Virus record (IMG/VR): IMGVR_UViG_3300045988_046609
Direction: 5' to 3' (one strand)
DNA: 64,000 nucleotides
Source: a virus
Made by a program: the position numbers and the translations under genes
Part shown: positions 2,182 through 61,065 of the stretch, in pieces
Layout: each line of letters starts with the position of its first letter
Position numbering within the stretch: the first letter of the stretch is position 1
The notes under the pieces: generated by a model
What the model was told of the DNA's origin: nothing
What the model saw: the letters and a program-made list of their open reading frames with translations, nothing else
The model's database searches: none

Positions 2182-3423
2182 ATGGAACTTGGAGATAAAA
2201 ATATTGTAGCTGTCCGTTTAGGAAACGCTAACGTATTTACTAATTATTATGGGGTTAGTTTCCCTATAGAACCTCAAAGTACTACTTTGACTAGAATTGG
2301 TTATATGCCTTGGCATAAAGAATTACCGATTCAATCTAAAATGAAATCATGTACACTTACTGCCGATGGTGTGGTTAAATATCTTAAAGCAGACGATAGA
2401 ACTAAATATGAAGATGGTTCTGATAGAGATATGACTTTAAATACTATGGTAGAAATACCTGAGTTTTGGTATAAGTGTATGAAGGATGACAATACTGTAT
2501 ATCTAAATTTGTATCCTGCAGATCCCATGATACCTGGAGTAGAGCACGTAGAGAAGTTCTATATTTCAGCATACGAAGCATCTAATGTTGAAGATGTATA
2601 TAAATCTATTAAAGGTGATAATATTACTCCTTCGGTTAATATTGCAAGAACCACAATGCAACAAAGAGCTAGGGCTAATAAGGCCGGTAGTACCAATTGG
2701 AATATATATACCTATAATGCACACAAGGTACTTACTATACTATATTTAGTAGAATATGCTTGTACTAATTCTCAAAAAGCATTTAATGCTGAATTAACCA
2801 CAGAAGGTTATCATCAGGGAGGTCTAGGAGATGGTGTTACTACCGGTAGTATACAAGTGAATGGAGTAGATAAATATAGCTTCATACCCTGTGGTAGTAC
2901 TGATGAACACGGTAATTCTACAGGAGTTACTTCAGTTACTGTTGATAGCAGTGATGCAGAGGGAGTTGTTACTCAGAAGACTTATAGTGTTCCTACTTAT
3001 AGAGGAATAGAGAATCCATTTGGTCATGTATGGAAAAATTGTATAGACATACTTATACATTATAATGCAACTTCTACGAAAAATGATGTTTATGTTACTA
3101 CCGATGTAAGCAAATTTGGTTCGACTAACATTTCAGATTATAACTTACAATGTAGTACTGTAACTAATGAAGGTTATAAGAAGAGACTCATCTATAATGA
3201 ATCATTTGATTTGTTTCCACCAATTGATGAGGCATATGGAGGAAGTGCTACTACATACTGGTGTGATTATAACTATACTAATGATAGCACTTCAAATAGA
3301 ACCTTATTTGTAGGCGGTGGCACTGATACTGGTGCGCTTTCCGGTTTGCTCCGTTTGAATTCTCGCAATGCGCTTGACTCTGCTTATGCCTCTGTCGGTA
3401 CTCGGTTAATCTATATACCGTAA
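2182..3423 (+). CDS. DGR variable (target) protein 1, receptor-binding/tail-fibre-like, C-terminal variable region
   Basis: 413-aa uninterrupted ORF. The last ~37 codons (VR1) match the downstream template repeat except at template adenines. The C-terminus ...YWCDYNYTNDSTSNRTLFVGGGTDTGALSGLLRLNSRNALDSAYASVGTRLIYIP resembles C-type-lectin/FGE-fold DGR targets. Confidence 0.85.
   Translation: MELGDKNIVAVRLGNANVFTNYYGVSFPIEPQSTTLTRIGYMPWHKELPIQSKMKSCTLTADGVVKYLKADDRTKYEDGSDRDMTLNTMVEIPEFWYKCMKDDNTVYLNLYPADPMIPGVEHVEKFYISAYEASNVEDVYKSIKGDNITPSVNIARTTMQQRARANKAGSTNWNIYTYNAHKVLTILYLVEYACTNSQKAFNAELTTEGYHQGGLGDGVTTGSIQVNGVDKYSFIPCGSTDEHGNSTGVTSVTVDSSDAEGVVTQKTYSVPTYRGIENPFGHVWKNCIDILIHYNATSTKNDVYVTTDVSKFGSTNISDYNLQCSTVTNEGYKKRLIYNESFDLFPPIDEAYGGSATTYWCDYNYTNDSTSNRTLFVGGGTDTGALSGLLRLNSRNALDSAYASVGTRLIYIP
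3313..3408 (+). repeat. DGR variable region VR1
   Basis: Ungapped alignment to TR at offset +144: 96 positions, 27 differences at TR adenines, 3 elsewhere (3326, 3377, 3404). TR codons in the VR frame are mostly AAT/AAC/AGT. Confidence 0.9.
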
Positions 3424-3436
3424 TTTAAATATAGAT
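3409..3436 (+). promoter_or_regulatory. inverted repeat immediately 3' of VR1 (possible DGR target-recognition hairpin)
   Basis: atctatat (3409-3416) and atatagat (3429-3436) are perfect reverse complements with a 12-nt spacer, starting right after the last VR1/TR-aligned base. Confidence 0.5.
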
Positions 3437-3456: not shown

Positions 3457-3552
3457 AGCAGTAACACTAGTAATAGTACGAATTCCAGTTTGCTCAATTT
3501 GAATTCTAACAATACACTTAGCAATGCTAATGCCAATGTCAGTACACTGAAA
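3457..3552 (+). repeat. DGR template repeat (TR)
   Basis: Non-coding, A-rich copy of VR1 between the target gene stop (3423) and the RT start (3681). It also matches VR2 at 60680-60745 on the minus strand. Confidence 0.9.
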
Positions 3553-3680: not shown

Positions 3681-4688
3681 ATGAAAAGATACAATAATTT
3701 ATTTGATAAAATAGTAAGTTTAGATAACTTATATGAGGCTGATAAAAGAGCTAGAAGATAGAAATCACATAGACCTGAAGTAATGTTATTTGATAAGAAC
3801 AAAGACAAGTTACTTTTAGATCTACAGAGAAAACTAATAAATGGGGAATACGAAACTTCCGAATATTATGTTTTCAAAATATATGAACCAAAAGAAAGAG
3901 AAATATTTAAGCTACCATACTATCCTGACAGAATTGTACATCACGCAATTATGAATATAATGGAGCCTATATGGGTATCTGCATTTGTAAAAGGAACTTA
4001 TAGTTGCATTAGAAAGCGCGGTATACACAAAGCTTTAAAAGATGTTAAATTTGCTTTAAAGGATGAAATAAATACGCAGTACTGTTTAAAGTTAAATATC
4101 AGAAAGTTCTATCCTTCTATAGATCACGATATATTAAAAACAATAATAAGGAAAAAAATAAAAGACAAAAGACTATTAAGTCTGCTAGATGAAATAATAG
4201 AATCAGCTTAGGGAGTACCTATTGGTAATTACTTATCCTAGTTCTTTGCTAATTTATACCTTACTTATTTAGATCACTGGATTAAAGAACAAAAGAAAGT
4301 TAGATACTACTTTAGATATGCAGATGATATTGTAATATTGGGTGGAGATAAGTAGTAGTTACGAGATTTATTCTATAATATACAGGATTATCTTAATAAT
4401 AAATTAAAGTTAAACTTTAAGGATAATTGGTAGATATTTAAGGTAGATTCGAGAGGTATAGATTTTGTAGGATATAGAGTATTTCATACTCATACACTAT
4501 TAAGAAAGCGTATAAAAAAGAAATTCTGCAAAAAGATAAACAAGTTAAATAAAAAATAGAACCTAGATAAAGATACATATAAGCAAAAAATATGTAGCTA
4601 TATAGGTTGGATTAAATACTGTAATGGACGTAACTTGTTAAATAAAATGTCTAAATATAAAAAGCTATTAGAATATATTAAAGAATAA
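3681..4688 (+). CDS. DGR reverse transcriptase (7 in-frame TAG codons read as sense)
   Basis: Frame is open from ATG 3681 to TAA 4686-4688 if TAG is sense. Contains YADD (4317-4328) and GVPIGNYLS-TAG (TAG 4239-4241), where DGR RTs carry the (I/L)GxxxSQ motif. N-terminus MKRYNNLFDKIVSLDNLYEADKRARR-TAG-KSHRPEV. Confidence 0.9.
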
Positions 4689-58445: not shown

Positions 58446-59051
58446 ATGCAAAAGTATAAATTACATAGAAGTTTAATTACTGTTATATGTGATCAATGCG
58501 GTAAAGAATATCTTAAACCTTTATCTGAGTATAAAAGAAATAAAGAATTAGGACGTCATAGTTTTTGTTCTAGATCTTGTTCTTGTAAATATAATTGTGT
58601 TCATTCATCTAATAAAATGCTAGAATATTCTAGATCAGAAAAAAATAAACAACGTTTAAGGTCTCTAAATGAAATAAAACGCTTAAAACGTCCAGAAGCA
58701 GTATTTTCATATTGCCTACGAAACTGTAGAAAACGATATAAGGAGTGTACTATTACATTAGAAGACTTACAAGAACAATGGAATAAACAAAAAGGTATAT
58801 GTCCTTATTCTGGAATATCTTTATTAGTTCCTACATATAAGAAAAATCATAATAATCCAATATATAGTGCATCAGTTGATAGAATTGATAGTACTAAAGG
58901 TTATATTCCTGGTAATATTCAATTTGTATCTACATGCATTAATTATATGAAGAATACTATGTCTGATGAAGAAACAAGGTTTATGTGTAAATGTATTGCA
59001 GAATATTTCTATTCTGAAGGGACTATTTCATCATCTGTCATTACTGCTTAA
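58446..59051 (+). CDS. HNH homing endonuclease (opposite strand to all neighbours)
   Basis: N-terminal Cys clusters (CDQCG...CSRSCSC) and C-terminal CPYSG...SVDRIDSTKGYIPGNIQFVSTCINYMK HNH-type motif. No in-frame TAG. Has its own terminator. Confidence 0.75.
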   Translation: MQKYKLHRSLITVICDQCGKEYLKPLSEYKRNKELGRHSFCSRSCSCKYNCVHSSNKMLEYSRSEKNKQRLRSLNEIKRLKRPEAVFSYCLRNCRKRYKECTITLEDLQEQWNKQKGICPYSGISLLVPTYKKNHNNPIYSASVDRIDSTKGYIPGNIQFVSTCINYMKNTMSDEETRFMCKCIAEYFYSEGTISSSVITA

Positions 59052-60435: not shown

Positions 60436-60618
60436 TTAGTAGTATATAACAGCGGGCAGAGGCTCTGGCGGAACCTCTTGCTTGTTATTCGTTGTCATTC
60501 TGAGTTTACACTCAAGATCACATTCACTACAGTTGATAATATTATCTTGTGTAGGACATTCGTTAGAAATCGAATTTGAAGTTTTCATGATCATCTCGAC
60601 CAAATAAGTGTTTGACAA
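60436..60618 (-). CDS. small Cys-containing ORF overlapping the 3' end of the VR2 gene
   Basis: 60 aa (alternative ATGs at 60594 and 60588). Contains C-x9-C-x2-C-x3-C. Confidence 0.3.
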   Translation of the reverse strand: MSNTYLVEMIMKTSNSISNECPTQDNIINCSECDLECKLRMTTNNKQEVPPEPLPAVIYY

Positions 60619-60970
60619 TCATAGGCTTACATATTCTTACAAATTCTTTTGCTGTATCTTTGTCTTTGAATTCCAAAGAAGTACCGACATAGGCAAAAGC
60701 AGCGCCAAGCGCACTGCTAGAATCCAAACGGAGCAAACCGGAAGGTTTTCTGTTATCTGTACAATTCCAACCCCATACGTAATATCTTACCTCTCTTGGA
60801 TCCATTGTTGTAGGTTTCCAGCCTTCATTTAAAGCTTTTGCAATGGTTTCTAACTTGATGAAATTCCTAGTTTCATCTGTTAATTTGTAGCTTTTATAAT
60901 TAGCTACAGGACGAAGACCTAGTATTTTACATGCGTCTTCATAAGGTTTTTCTTTACTTAATTTAATCAT
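60563..60970 (-). CDS. DGR variable (target) protein 2, 135 aa
   Basis: Residues ...NRKPSGLLRLDSSSALGAAFAYVGTSL... parallel ...GALSGLLRLNSRNALDSAYASVGTRL... of target 1. The DNA matches the TR except at adenines. ATG overlaps the upstream stop (atga). Confidence 0.8.
   Translation of the reverse strand: MIKLSKEKPYEDACKILGLRPVANYKSYKLTDETRNFIKLETIAKALNEGWKPTTMDPREVRYYVWGWNCTDNRKPSGLLRLDSSSALGAAFAYVGTSLEFKDKDTAKEFVRICKPMIVKHLFGRDDHENFKFDF
60663..60679 (-). promoter_or_regulatory. inverted repeat immediately 3' of VR2
   Basis: tctttg-aattc-caaaga forms a 6-bp stem starting at the base after the last TR-aligned position. Confidence 0.45.
60680..60745 (-). repeat. DGR variable region VR2 (remote, opposite strand)
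   Basis: The reverse complement aligns ungapped to TR 3481-3546: 66 positions, 18 differences, all at TR adenines; 5 TR adenines unchanged; no other mismatch. Same codon register as VR1. Confidence 0.85.
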
Positions 60971-61065
60971 GCCTTTTTGCGATTATAAGGTTCCATTTTC
61001 TTATGCTTAGGACGTTTTTTATATTCCGTCTTAGTTTTTACTTCTTTCTCCTTATCTTTTCCCAT
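60967..61065 (-). CDS. 32-aa highly basic micro-ORF coupled to the VR2 gene
   Basis: MGKDKEKEVKTKTEYKKRPKHKKMEPYNRKKA. Starts 1 nt after the upstream stop, and its TGA overlaps the VR2-gene ATG. Confidence 0.35.
   Translation of the reverse strand: MGKDKEKEVKTKTEYKKRPKHKKMEPYNRKKA

What the first reader, a model, noticed from the sequence alone, without database searches (positions are those of the whole stretch)
60563..60970. Second DGR variable region 57 kb from the TR, on the opposite strand, in a 135-aa ORF of the standard-code block
Seen: the reverse complement of 60680-60745 aligns ungapped with TR 3481-3546. Of 66 positions, 18 differ and every difference is at a TR adenine. Five TR adenines are unchanged and there are no other mismatches. 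The codon register is the same as in VR1 (TR AAT/AAC/AGT codons became P, G, R, D, S, S, A, G, A, F, Y, G, T). VR1 and VR2 differ from each other at many A-templated sites, so they diversified independently. A 6-bp inverted repeat (60663-60679) begins at the base after the alignment, mirroring the repeat after VR1. The host ORF lies among small ORFs transcribed with the replication genes. It contains no TAG, ends in TAA, and is translationally coupled (atga overlap) to a 32-aa very basic micro-ORF. Established knowledge: DGRs can serve several targets, including remote ones, and known phage targets are typically virion receptor-binding proteins. Inference: this DGR may also diversify a small, probably non-virion and earlier-expressed protein. 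One possibility is an intracellular binder aimed at variable host factors or defences. I do not know of a described example, but I cannot search.
Basis: partly seen in the sequence, partly recalled or inferred. Interest (0 to 1): 0.85.

Follow-up and report, generated by a model that had tools for sequence, protein, structure and literature searches.

The report
Second, remote DGR target in crAss-like phage
A gut crAss-like phage uses one mutagenic reverse-transcriptase system to hypermutate both its tail protein and, 57 kb away, a small non-structural protein. That small protein belongs to a family that several unrelated gut phages diversify in the same way, and its function is unknown.

Summary
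Only TR, VR1 and VR2 match in the whole window.

The window is a Buchavirus (Suoliviridae, crAss-like), 97.6% identical to cr56_1. In 22 related genomes VR2 follows its own genome's TR: 313 of 419 A sites changed, against 23 of 901 non-A sites. That equals VR1.

Public variants of the 135-aa protein vary almost only at residues 81, 83, 85, 86, 87, 90, 92 and 94, with NNY-type spectra. VR2 is therefore an active remote DGR target.

The protein belongs to an unannotated family of small soluble phage proteins (about 2,350 clusters at 90% identity). Members are also remote DGR targets in Bacteroides phage BI-TP1 (LoVEphage-like), phage Versailles and a 50-kb temperate phage group. All lie in early, replication, recombination or counter-defence regions.

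A confident AlphaFold model matches no solved structure, C-type lectins included.

Distal non-structural second targets were already reported for Quimbyvirus (2021) and four gut prophages (2025). This is a new member of a known kind. New here are the crAss-like case and the shared target family. Function is inferred only: probably an intracellular hypervariable binder.

The parts
60680..60745 (-). VR2, the remote variable repeat. It encodes residues 76-97 (PSGLLRLDSSSALGAAFAYVGT). The safe core is 60680-60743.
   Evidence: 18 of 66 mismatches to the TR, all at TR adenines; 0 of 43 non-A mismatches, unique in the window; the same holds in relatives against their own TR.
60563..60970 (-). 135-aa target protein: soluble, pI 9.1, no Pfam, NCBIfam or PADLOC hit, matches phrog_11581. 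It belongs to a family of small phage proteins that are remote DGR targets.
   Evidence: Homologues: 966 clusters. Family: 257 representatives and 2351 clusters. AF2 model pLDDT 88.3.
60663..60679 (-). 6-bp inverted repeat TCTTTG-GAATT-CAAAGA immediately 3' of VR2. A role in target recognition is doubtful.
   Evidence: Present. Perfect in only 6 of 45 relatives. An alternative 11-nt-loop register is perfect in 15 of 45.
60967..61065 (-). Conserved 32-aa basic micro-ORF (MGKDKEKEVKTKTEYKKRPKHKKMEPYNRKKA). Its TGA stop overlaps the ATG of the target gene.
   Evidence: Conserved in most of 40 IMG/VR relatives. Annotated as a CDS in cr60_1, cr109_1, cr113_1 and cr52_1.
60436..60594 (-). Conserved Cys4 small ORF (MIMKTSNSISNECPTQDNIINCSECDLECKLRM...PPEPLPAVIYY) that overlaps the 3' end of the target gene.
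3457..3546 (+). Template repeat (TR). It is non-coding and rich in AAT/AAC codons. Its 3' end is GTCAGTACA, against GTCGGTACT in both VRs.
3313..3402 (+). VR1, at the C-terminus of the Mtd-like tail protein.
   Evidence: 17 A-site and 1 non-A mismatch in the 66-nt core. The homology extends about 25 nt further 5' than for VR2.
2182..3423 (+). Mtd-like tail protein (413 aa, phrog_5302 tail protein), the cis target.
   Evidence: Annotated 'tail protein; similar to sulfatase, major tropism determinant' in cr56_1.
3410..3435 (+). 7-bp stem-loop TCTATAT...ATATAGA just 3' of VR1.
   Evidence: kept in 46 of 51 loci, with a compensatory change to CCTATAT/ATATAGG in 5 loci and loops of 9 to 21 nt.
3681..4688 (+). 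DGR reverse transcriptase, 335 aa, with 7 in-frame TAG codons read as Gln. It carries YADD and IGNYLS-Q, and the Q of that motif is a TAG.
   Evidence: tblastn gives 93% to the cr56_1 RT and 37% to BPP-1 Brt, E 9e-36.

Best explanation
60680-60745(-) is an active second variable repeat of the phage's single diversity-generating retroelement.

Shown or strongly supported:
- The TR (3457-3546) lies next to a DGR-type RT (3681-4688).
- Both VR1 (tail-protein C-terminus, in cis) and VR2 (57 kb away, opposite strand) are TR copies that differ from it essentially only at TR adenines.
- In each related genome both VRs follow that genome's own TR at non-A positions.
- The two VRs are independent draws with identical variability profiles.
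- Variation in public sequences is confined to 7-8 codons.

Inferred from the established DGR mechanism (Bordetella phage BPP-1): TR RNA is copied by the RT with adenine-specific errors, and the cDNA replaces the VR. Priming or integration is anchored at the short 3' element CGGTACT (TR: CAGTACA). The 5' junction is resolved by short homology (TT[A/G]CTC), and its position varies between genomes. The RT needs TAG-to-Gln suppression, so it can only be made once recoding is on, probably late. New VR2 alleles would then act in the next infection.

The target is a 135-aa soluble protein of a large, unannotated family of small phage proteins. Members are encoded in early, replication, recombination or counter-defence regions. 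Members are also the remote DGR target in BI-TP1 (LoVEphage-like) gp84, in phage Versailles and in a 50-kb temperate phage group. The hypervariable residues 81/83/85 and 90/92/94 alternate along two predicted antiparallel beta-strands (82-86 and 89-93). They should therefore form one exposed face.

Most likely function (inference only): a non-virion, intracellular hypervariable binder acting in phage-host or phage-phage conflict. The ligand is unknown.

Confidence by step:
- Active remote DGR target: about 0.95.
- Member of a recurrent DGR co-target family: about 0.9.
- Non-virion or early: about 0.65.
- Binder in counter-defence: about 0.35.
For: A-only mismatches and uniqueness in the window.

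Own-TR tracking:
- cr56_1 18 A and 0 non-A, cr60_1 17 and 2, cr52_1 14 and 1.
- In 22 IMG/VR genome pairs, 313 of 419 A sites changed against 23 of 901 non-A sites for VR2, and 315 A and 6 non-A for VR1.
- The per-codon entropies of VR1 and VR2 are nearly identical. The same three AGY-to-GGY glycines are fixed in both.
- VR1 and VR2 of one genome agree at 35% of free A sites, which indicates independent draws.

Population hypervariability:
- 966 clusters at 90% identity, nearly all 135 aa.
- Entropy above 3 bits only at residues 81, 83, 85, 86, 90, 92 and 94, with NNY spectra.
- About 48% difference within residues 81-94, against 5.5% elsewhere. Window against cr56_1: 18 of 66 inside the VR, 11 of 342 outside.
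- The gene flanks are conserved and the VR is hypervariable across five Buchavirus species.

Variable 5' junction: L025 extends the homology by 12 nt.

RT: YADD and GxxxS-Q motifs, 7 in-frame TAG. 148 in-frame TAGs in the + block against standard code in the - block. tRNA(CUA) in cr56_1.

Family:
- 257 representatives at 50% identity, alignment A4, 2351 clusters.
- 81 proteins of 181 aa are identical except at 7 NNY-type positions.
- One TR, a tail VR and two small-protein VR types in a second phage group.
- BI-TP1 gp84: hhalign 99.9%, and 0 non-A mismatches to its TR.
- Versailles: hhalign 99.7%, and 0 non-A mismatches in the best 70 nt.

Context.

Soluble, with no hydrophobic segment.

Model with pLDDT 88.3, VR as a beta-hairpin.

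Literature precedent for a distal non-structural target: PMC8008677, PMC12629997.
Against: - No read-level data were available, so ongoing diversification within one population is inferred from between-genome comparisons.
- No expression or proteomic data exist. 'Early' and 'non-virion' rest on gene position, the standard code and the absence of export signals.
- The canonical downstream hairpin is not well conserved at VR2. The 3' element shared by VR1 and VR2 is only about 9 nt.
- The VR is internal and the fold is not detectably a C-type lectin, unlike all structurally characterised DGR targets. The Foldseek negative could not be controlled with the tail protein.
- The gene is dispensable in some lineages. 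cr113_1 carries a deletion, cr109_1 keeps the gene without an RT, and the L038 orthologue is not targeted.
- Nothing identifies a ligand. No hit in PADLOC, Pfam or NCBIfam.
Confidence: 0.8

Rival explanations
1. The small protein is a virion-associated module, either a second hypervariable receptor-binding tip or a tail accessory. It would attach to the particle and broaden or alter host recognition, even though it is encoded outside the structural block.
For: - It carries the same TR-encoded peptide as the tail protein. The same three glycines are fixed and the variability profile is the same, so the local structure is probably similar.
- hhalign aligns the 31-aa VR segment with the tail-protein C-terminus at 95% probability.
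- The Versailles homologue is annotated 'tail protein', probably only because of the VR segment.
- Known phage DGR targets are mostly tail proteins (PMC8144416).
Against: - In four unrelated phage lineages the gene lies among early, recombination, replication or methyltransferase genes, not tail genes.
- In this phage it is in the standard-code block, whereas the + strand block that holds the tail and RT genes carries 148 in-frame TAGs.
- Outside the VR there is no similarity to tail proteins.
- The protein is small, with no recognisable docking domain.
Confidence: 0.13
2. VR2 is kept similar to the TR indirectly. Gene conversion or recombination with VR1 would supply the sequence, rather than direct retrohoming of cDNA into VR2.
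For: In cr60_1, VR1 and VR2 share the first 9 free A-site substitutions and one non-A change. Exchange between the two VRs therefore does occur.
Against: - In the other 21 genomes VR1 and VR2 agree at only about 35% of free A sites, the level expected for independent draws.
- The extent of VR2 homology differs from VR1 and varies between genomes.
- Both VRs keep the VR-type 3' end CGGTACT. Remote VRs hit directly are an established DGR property.
Confidence: 0.04
3. VR2 is a decaying relic of a former target and is no longer diversified in this phage.
For: Some relatives have frozen or lost the system. cr109_1 lacks an RT, cr113_1 has the VR2 region deleted, the TR is corrupted in L098 and L063, and the L038 orthologue is not targeted.
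Against: - The window's VR2 has 0 non-A mismatches to its TR.
- TR, RT and VR1 are intact.
- The closest relative (97.6% identical) differs at 18 of 66 VR2 positions against 11 of 342 elsewhere.
- VR2 is as variable as VR1 across genomes.
Confidence: 0.03

Closest known systems
Quimbyvirus ('Quimbyviridae') distal second DGR target (Benler et al. 2021, PMC8008677), and the four gut prophage species with a distal second VR (PMC12629997, 2025). Represented here by Bacteroides phage BI-TP1 gp84, a LoVEphage-like phage.
   Same: - One RT and TR next to a tail gene, plus a second VR far away on the other strand, in a small protein among non-structural or counter-defence genes.
- BI-TP1 gp84 is homologous to the window protein's family over its full length (hhalign 99.9%, E 9e-31).
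- It shows A-only mismatches to its TR.
- Its neighbourhood (methyltransferases, TIGR02757 protein, tRNA ligase) matches the published description of the Quimbyvirus locus.
   Different: - The phage lineage differs: a crAss-like podophage of Suoliviridae against a temperate phage of about 71 kb.
- The TR sequence is unrelated and the VR is shorter (22 aa against about 37 aa).
- The RT is TAG-recoded here, whereas it is frameshifted in Quimbyvirus.
- The neighbours here are small unknown ORFs rather than methyltransferases.
- The papers call the target a C-type lectin protein and do not define a shared family.
- Identity of BI-TP1 gp84 with Quimbyvirus ORF 80/84 is inferred from the neighbourhood. 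It was not checked on the Quimbyvirus sequence.
Bordetella phage BPP-1 DGR (Mtd / TR / Avd / Brt)
   Same: - Adenine-specific TR-to-VR mutagenic retrohoming.
- AAY codon design in the TR.
- An RT of the same clade (37% identity, E 9e-36).
- A tail-protein C-terminal VR followed by a stem-loop.
   Different: - BPP-1 has a single target.
- It has an avd gene, and none lies in this cassette.
- BPP-1 has a long GC-rich IMH. Here the two VRs share only about 9 nt at the 3' end.
- The second target here is not a tail protein and not a detectable C-type lectin.
DGRs of other crAss-like phages: LMMB and Alpha (PMC7290462), Epsilon (PMC11054128), Zeta (PMC12386605)
   Same: - The RT lies downstream of a tail (collar) fibre gene.
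- There is no avd gene in most.
- Some RT genes show amber suppression.
- The RTs are related (49-67% identity).
   Different: Those reports describe only tail-fibre targets, with several TR-VR pairs in two Zeta phages. None of the papers found in the held library describes a remote non-structural target in Crassvirales.
Multi-target or remote-target cellular DGRs (such as Treponema and Legionella, from my own knowledge; 'remote targets' are noted in PMC8144416)
   Same: One TR serves several VRs, some far from the RT.
   Different: Those targets are C-type-lectin surface or lipoproteins of cells, not small soluble phage proteins. The largest survey states that it could not detect remote targets (PMC8144416).

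Membership tests
DGR variable repeat (target of mutagenic retrohoming) | A TR/VR pair whose differences are confined to TR adenines. | tested here: met
   18 of 18 mismatches at A, and 0 of 43 non-A. In 22 relatives, 313 of 419 A sites against 23 of 901 non-A sites.
DGR variable repeat (target of mutagenic retrohoming) | A DGR-clade reverse transcriptase next to the TR, with YxDD and GxxxSQ motifs. | tested here: met
   RT 3681-4688 carries YADD and IGNYLS-Q, where the Q is a TAG codon. It has 7 in-frame TAGs. It is 37% identical to BPP-1 Brt.
DGR variable repeat (target of mutagenic retrohoming) | Hypervariability in natural populations restricted to A-templated codons, with NNY amino-acid spectra and no stops. 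| tested here: met
   Read-level variation within one sample was not testable here.
DGR variable repeat (target of mutagenic retrohoming) | An IMH at the 3' end of the VR that differs from IMH* in the TR. | tested here: inconclusive
   Both VRs end in GTCGGTACT and the TR ends in GTCAGTACA. This is conserved in relatives. Only about 9 nt are shared between VR1 and VR2, and function was not testable. Two relatives have self-mutagenised TRs in which this element has become the VR type.
DGR variable repeat (target of mutagenic retrohoming) | A hairpin or cruciform just downstream of the VR. | tested here: inconclusive
   VR1: a 7-bp stem in 46 of 51 loci, with a compensatory change. VR2: the 6-bp repeat is perfect in 6 of 45 and an alternative register in 15 of 45.
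DGR variable repeat (target of mutagenic retrohoming) | The VR forms the C-terminal part of a C-type lectin fold. | tested here: inconclusive
   - The VR is internal (residues 77-97 of 135).
- The AF2 model (pLDDT 88.3) has no Foldseek PDB hit: best E 1.9, TM below 0.25.
- BFVD hits are only uncharacterised phage proteins.
- No positive control was possible. Sequence and profile tests fail even for the tail protein.
DGR variable repeat (target of mutagenic retrohoming) | An accessory Avd gene in the cassette. This is not universal. | tested here: not met
   There is no ORF between the tail gene, the TR and the RT, and holin follows the RT. Absence of avd is also reported for other crAss-like DGRs (PMC7290462).
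Small phage protein family (phrog_11581-like; BI-TP1 gp84 / Versailles WAK79127 type) that serves as remote DGR co-target | Full-length sequence homology, with the motifs EDAC..LG, ALNEGW, KYYPWF, VGSRLCFK and ELA.YAG.QF. | tested here: met
   Profile search gives 257 representatives. See alignment A4. hhalign gives 99.9% and 99.7% to the BI-TP1 and Versailles proteins. phrog_11581 matches at E 9e-11.
Small phage protein family (phrog_11581-like; BI-TP1 gp84 / Versailles WAK79127 type) that serves as remote DGR co-target | The VR shares its TR with the phage's tail protein and lies far from the RT. | tested here: met
   Buchavirus, BI-TP1, Versailles, and the 50-kb temperate phage group with two paralogous targets.
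Small phage protein family (phrog_11581-like; BI-TP1 gp84 / Versailles WAK79127 type) that serves as remote DGR co-target | Encoded outside the structural module, and non-virion. | tested here: inconclusive
   Gene position fits in all four lineages. Expression timing and virion content are not testable with these tools.

The most novel reading that the evidence does not exclude
The family would be a dedicated class of DGR-diversified intracellular binders, built on a scaffold that is not a canonical C-type lectin. Phages would use it as an adaptive 'antibody-like' counter-defence or host-takeover factor, re-randomised in every lytic cycle by the same TR that serves the tail protein. Unrelated gut phages (crAss-like, LoVE/Quimby-like, temperate siphophages) would have recruited it repeatedly.
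Probability: 0.3. Interest if true: 0.9.

Novelty: new member of a known kind. Interest (0 to 1): 0.62.

Why it matters
DGRs are the only known natural system of targeted protein hypermutation in prokaryotes and their viruses. In phages they are understood only as a way to change receptor specificity. Distal, non-structural second targets have been noted twice (2021 and 2025) without explanation. The largest DGR survey states that it could not see remote targets.

This case adds three things:
- The phenomenon also exists in crAss-like phages, some of the most abundant human gut viruses.
- VR2 is as actively diversified as the tail protein.
- The distal targets in at least four unrelated gut phage lineages are homologous. 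They form one conserved small protein family, always outside the structural genes, with a fold that matches no solved structure.

This turns a curiosity into a defined and testable family. Members sit in cultured or inducible Bacteroides phages (BI-TP1, PV4-TP1, Versailles), where deletion, pull-down, transcript timing and virion proteomics are feasible. If the protein proves to be an intracellular hypervariable binder, it would show that phages use programmed hypermutation inside the host cell as well as at its surface.

Tried and rejected
- Pfam, NCBIfam and PADLOC scans of the 135-aa protein and of family members gave nothing significant. PHROGs gave only phrog_11581, of unknown function.
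- Sequence and profile searches of the PDB gave nothing for the family, for BI-TP1 gp84, or even for the tail-protein C-terminus used as a positive control. hhalign against BPP-1 Mtd was negative for both the tail domain and the family. Sequence tests for a C-type lectin are therefore uninformative here.
- The first AlphaFold run, on a shallow alignment of sequences about 90% identical, was unusable (pLDDT 46). The run with 84 diverse family members was good.
It is too poorly conserved to count as a recognition element.
- Chance similarity is rejected. A relic VR is rejected. Gene conversion from VR1 as the general source is rejected, since it is seen in only 1 of 22 genomes.
- A third VR in this phage was not found in the window or in the rest of cr56_1.
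- An Avd-like accessory role for the protein was considered and dropped. The protein is itself diversified and is predicted to be alpha/beta rather than a four-helix bundle.
- A megablast of the 50-kb temperate phage locus against INPHARED gave no match. Its TR was instead found by a degenerate pattern scan of IMG/VR.
- A literature search for a Suoliviridae or Buchavirus remote target found nothing. A search for a DGR in phage Versailles found no paper.
Full report
**1. The observation**

The reverse complement of 60680-60745 aligns without gaps to TR 3481-3546. Of 66 positions, 18 differ and every difference is at a TR adenine. Five adenines are unchanged and none of the 43 non-A positions differs.

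I scanned both strands of the 64-kb window for the 43 non-A positions of the TR. Only three places have 12 or fewer mismatches: the TR itself, VR2 (0) and VR1 at 3339-3402 (1). Chance is excluded.

The first two 'A' mismatches (AAT to CCT) sit at the very edge of the homology and may lie outside the VR.

The 135-aa ORF (60563-60970, minus strand) has no in-frame TAG and ends in TAA. It overlaps by ATGA a 32-aa basic micro-ORF.

**2. What the window is**

The region is 97.6% identical to crAss-like phage cr56_1 (NC_055890; Suoliviridae, Loutivirinae, Buchavirus). It is 83-91% identical to four other Buchavirus species.

The + strand block (1-37.8 kb) holds the tail genes and the DGR cassette. 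It is TAG-recoded: reading through TAG doubles the coding length, with 148 in-frame TAGs. The minus-strand block, which carries the replication genes and the VR2 gene, uses the standard code.

The RT (3681-4688, 335 aa) has YADD and 7 in-frame TAGs. One of them encodes the Q of the DGR hallmark motif IGNYLS-Q. cr56_1 carries a tRNA with anticodon CUA outside the window. The RT is 37% identical to Brt of Bordetella phage BPP-1.

VR1 lies at the C-terminus of a 413-aa Mtd-like tail protein (phrog_5302). There is no avd gene in the cassette.

**3. Is VR2 an active target?**

Across five Buchavirus species the 135-aa gene is highly conserved, except for a hypervariable stretch that coincides with VR2.

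In cr56_1, cr60_1 and cr52_1, VR2 matches that genome's own TR, with 18/0, 17/2 and 14/1 A-site/non-A mismatches. Non-A differences between the TRs of different genomes are mirrored in the corresponding VR2.

I paired 27 IMG/VR contigs that carry both the small gene and the tail/TR locus. In the 22 pairs with a recognisable TR and a matching VR2:
- VR2 differs from its TR at 313 of 419 A sites, against 23 of 901 non-A sites.
- VR1 gives 315 A-site and 6 non-A differences.
- The extra non-A mismatches of VR2 cluster at its 5' edge, where the junction varies between genomes.

The per-codon entropies of VR1 and VR2 are almost identical. The seven AAY codons carry 2.7-3.4 bits in both. The same three AGY-to-GGY glycines are fixed in both.

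VR1 and VR2 of the same genome agree at 35% of free A sites, which is about what independent draws give. cr60_1 is the exception: a run of nine shared substitutions plus a shared non-A change indicates an exchange between VR1 and VR2.

In the protein database the 135-aa protein has 966 clusters at 90% identity, nearly all of 135 aa. Among the best 120, entropy exceeds 3 bits only at residues 81, 83, 85, 86, 90, 92 and 94, plus 1.8 bits at residue 87. The amino-acid spectra are those expected of NNY codons. Sequences differ at 48% of positions within residues 81-94, against 5.5% elsewhere.

One relative (L025) has VR2-TR homology extending 12 nt further 5'. This replaces RKPS by GATA and looks like a retrohoming event resolved at a different microhomology.

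Together these results show a currently active, directly targeted remote VR.

**4. Losses**

- cr109_1 has lost the RT and most of the TR but keeps both VRs.
- cr113_1 has no detectable RT, and a deletion removes the VR2 part of the gene.
- Two IMG/VR relatives have a TR that has itself lost its adenines.
- One more distant relative has an orthologue whose VR-like stretch no longer matches its TR.

The gene is therefore conserved but not indispensable, and the system decays in recognisable ways.

**5. Recognition elements**

Both VRs end in GTCGGTACT, whereas the TR ends in GTCAGTACA. Beyond that point VR1 and VR2 diverge.

A 7-bp stem-loop follows VR1 in 46 of 51 loci, with a compensatory change in five of them.

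An alternative register is perfect in 15 of 45. I treat it as unproven.

**6. What the target protein is**

There is no Pfam, NCBIfam or PADLOC hit. The only match is phrog_11581, of unknown function. The protein has no hydrophobic segment and a pI of 9.1.

A profile search of 1.84 billion representatives found 257 clusters. They are small proteins of 110-190 aa with the conserved motifs EDAC..LG, ALNEGW.PDW, KYYPWF, VGSRLCFK and ELA.YAG.QF. A second search found 2351 clusters at 90% identity.

Within that set, 81 proteins of about 181 aa are identical everywhere except at seven positions with NNY spectra. They come from a 50-kb temperate phage. There the gene lies between a metallo-hydrolase (Apyc1-like) gene and an HU-like gene, downstream of an SbcC/SMC-like gene and upstream of SSB.

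A degenerate pattern scan of IMG/VR recovered three things for that phage group:
- the TR;
- a tail-type VR;
- two different small-protein VRs, meaning two paralogous family members targeted by one TR.

Family members also occur in cultured Bacteroides phages:
- BI-TP1 gp84 (LoVEphage-like) aligns at hhalign 99.9%. It lies among methyltransferases, a TIGR02757 protein and a tRNA ligase. It shows 0 non-A mismatches to its TR.
- The Versailles protein aligns at 99.7%. It lies between NinB and replisome genes and shows 0 non-A mismatches in the best 70 nt.

The TR sequences of these lineages are unrelated to one another. In each phage, however, the small protein's VR matches that phage's tail VR.

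**7. Structure**

With a diverse alignment AlphaFold2 gives pLDDT 88.3 and pTM 0.83. The elements are helices 9-17 and 32-48, strands 66-69, 82-86 and 89-93, a helix 104-123 and a strand 131-134.

The hypervariable residues alternate along the 82-86 and 89-93 hairpin, so they should line one face (inference).

Foldseek finds no solved structure (best E 1.9, TM below 0.25). In BFVD it finds only uncharacterised phage proteins.

hhalign links the family to the tail-protein C-terminus only over the 31-aa VR segment.

Sequence tests for a C-type lectin fail even for the tail domain, so they say nothing either way. The fold question stays open: either a strongly reduced C-type lectin derivative or a distinct scaffold.

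**8. Mechanism and function**

Shown: the anatomy of the TR, the two VRs and the RT; the adenine-specific pattern; own-TR tracking; independent diversification of the two VRs; and the variable 5' junction.

Inferred from the BPP-1 paradigm: mutagenic reverse transcription of TR RNA, followed by cDNA replacement of each VR.

Inferred from recoding: the RT can be translated only when TAG is read as Gln, probably late in infection.

The function is inferred only. The protein is a soluble, non-structural hypervariable binder. In other phages its gene neighbours are counter-defence, recombination and replication genes. I put about 0.35 on a role in phage-host or phage-phage conflict and about 0.13 on a virion-associated role.

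**9. What is already known**

- Benler et al. 2021 (PMC8008677) described a second Quimbyvirus DGR target. It is distal to the structural module, on the opposite strand, and sits among a nuclease, methyltransferases and a tRNA ligase. They stated that previously known phage targets are structural.
- A 2025 study (PMC12629997) found four inducible gut prophage species with a distal second VR near counter-defence genes.
- Roux et al. 2021 (PMC8144416) state that their survey could not detect remote targets and that annotated VR regions were always C-type lectin.
- Papers on DGRs of Alpha, Epsilon and Zeta crAss-like phages describe tail-fibre targets only. I found nothing on a remote target in Suoliviridae.

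The phenomenon is therefore known. New here are the crAss-like instance, the demonstration that VR2 is as active as VR1, and the recognition that the distal targets of several unrelated phages form one family.

**10. Verdict**

This is a real, active remote DGR target and a new member of a known kind. Interest is moderate to high (0.62), because it defines a tractable family for an unexplained use of programmed hypermutation.

Noticed in passing
window 3681-4688 (+); whole window: The DGR RT has 7 in-frame TAG codons, and the Q of its hallmark IGNYLS-Q motif is a TAG. The + block (1-37.8 kb) has 148 in-frame TAGs, while the - block uses the standard code. The Mtd-like tail gene itself has no TAG. 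cr56_1 carries a tRNA(CUA) at 92120-92199, outside the window.
   Followed up: yes
L098 about 2790-2890; L063 about 2370-2470 (IMG/VR relatives, downstream of the tail gene): In two relatives the TR itself has lost its adenines through A-to-G/N changes. Its 3' end has become the VR type (CGGTAC). The DGR appears to have mutagenised its own template, which should disable it.
   Followed up: partly
L008 4524-4762 (cr109_1); L004 3137-3394 (cr113_1): cr109_1 has lost the RT and most of the TR but keeps VR1 and VR2. cr113_1 has no RT hit, and a deletion removes exactly the VR2 part of the small gene, leaving an 85-aa ORF.
   Followed up: partly
L025 about 1710-1800 with L067 (contig IMGVR_UViG_3300045988_063141): The VR2-TR homology extends 12 nt further 5' than in relatives, so the protein reads GATA instead of RKPS. 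This looks like a retrohoming event resolved at a different TAAT microhomology.
   Followed up: yes
L002 3131-3538 and L007 (cr60_1): VR1 and VR2 share the first nine free A-site substitutions and one non-A T-to-C change. This implies gene conversion or exchange between the two inverted VRs. The other 21 genomes look independent.
   Followed up: partly
window 3410-3435 (+): A 7-bp stem-loop follows VR1 and spans the tail-gene stop codon. It is conserved in 46 of 51 loci, with a compensatory change from TCTATAT/ATATAGA to CCTATAT/ATATAGG and variable loop length.
   Followed up: yes
window 60967-61065 (-) and 60436-60594 (-): Two conserved small ORFs flank the target gene. One is a 32-aa basic micro-ORF coupled to it by ATGA. 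The other is a roughly 52-aa Cys4 ORF (CPT..N...CS.C...C ... PPEPLPAVIYY) that overlaps its 3' end. Their functions are unknown.
   Followed up: partly
L102-L128 (IMG/VR and ENA loci of a 50-kb temperate phage group); contig IMGVR_UViG_7000000333_000075 = L110 and L111: In this group one TR serves three VRs: a tail protein and two paralogous members of the small-protein family. Many contigs of this phage break at about 12.5 kb, just after the variable gene. This may be assembly breakage at the VR.
   Followed up: partly
L038 with L085 (contig IMGVR_UViG_3300045988_056974): This orthologue is 72% identical. Its VR-like stretch (SGLLYLYSAYGFSDAAYVYA) has 18 non-A mismatches to its genome's TR, although TR and VR1 are intact. 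It is either a former target or not yet a target.
   Followed up: no
window 58446-59051 (+): An HNH/endonuclease VII-like gene lies on the opposite strand inside the minus-strand early block. It is present in cr56_1 and cr113_1. At the corresponding place cr60_1 and cr52_1 have an annotated tmRNA (cr60_1 also a tRNA). It is likely a mobile homing endonuclease.
   Followed up: no
P0131, P0140, P0153, P0212 (family members of 247-305 aa): Some family members are tandem duplications of the whole domain within one protein.
   Followed up: no
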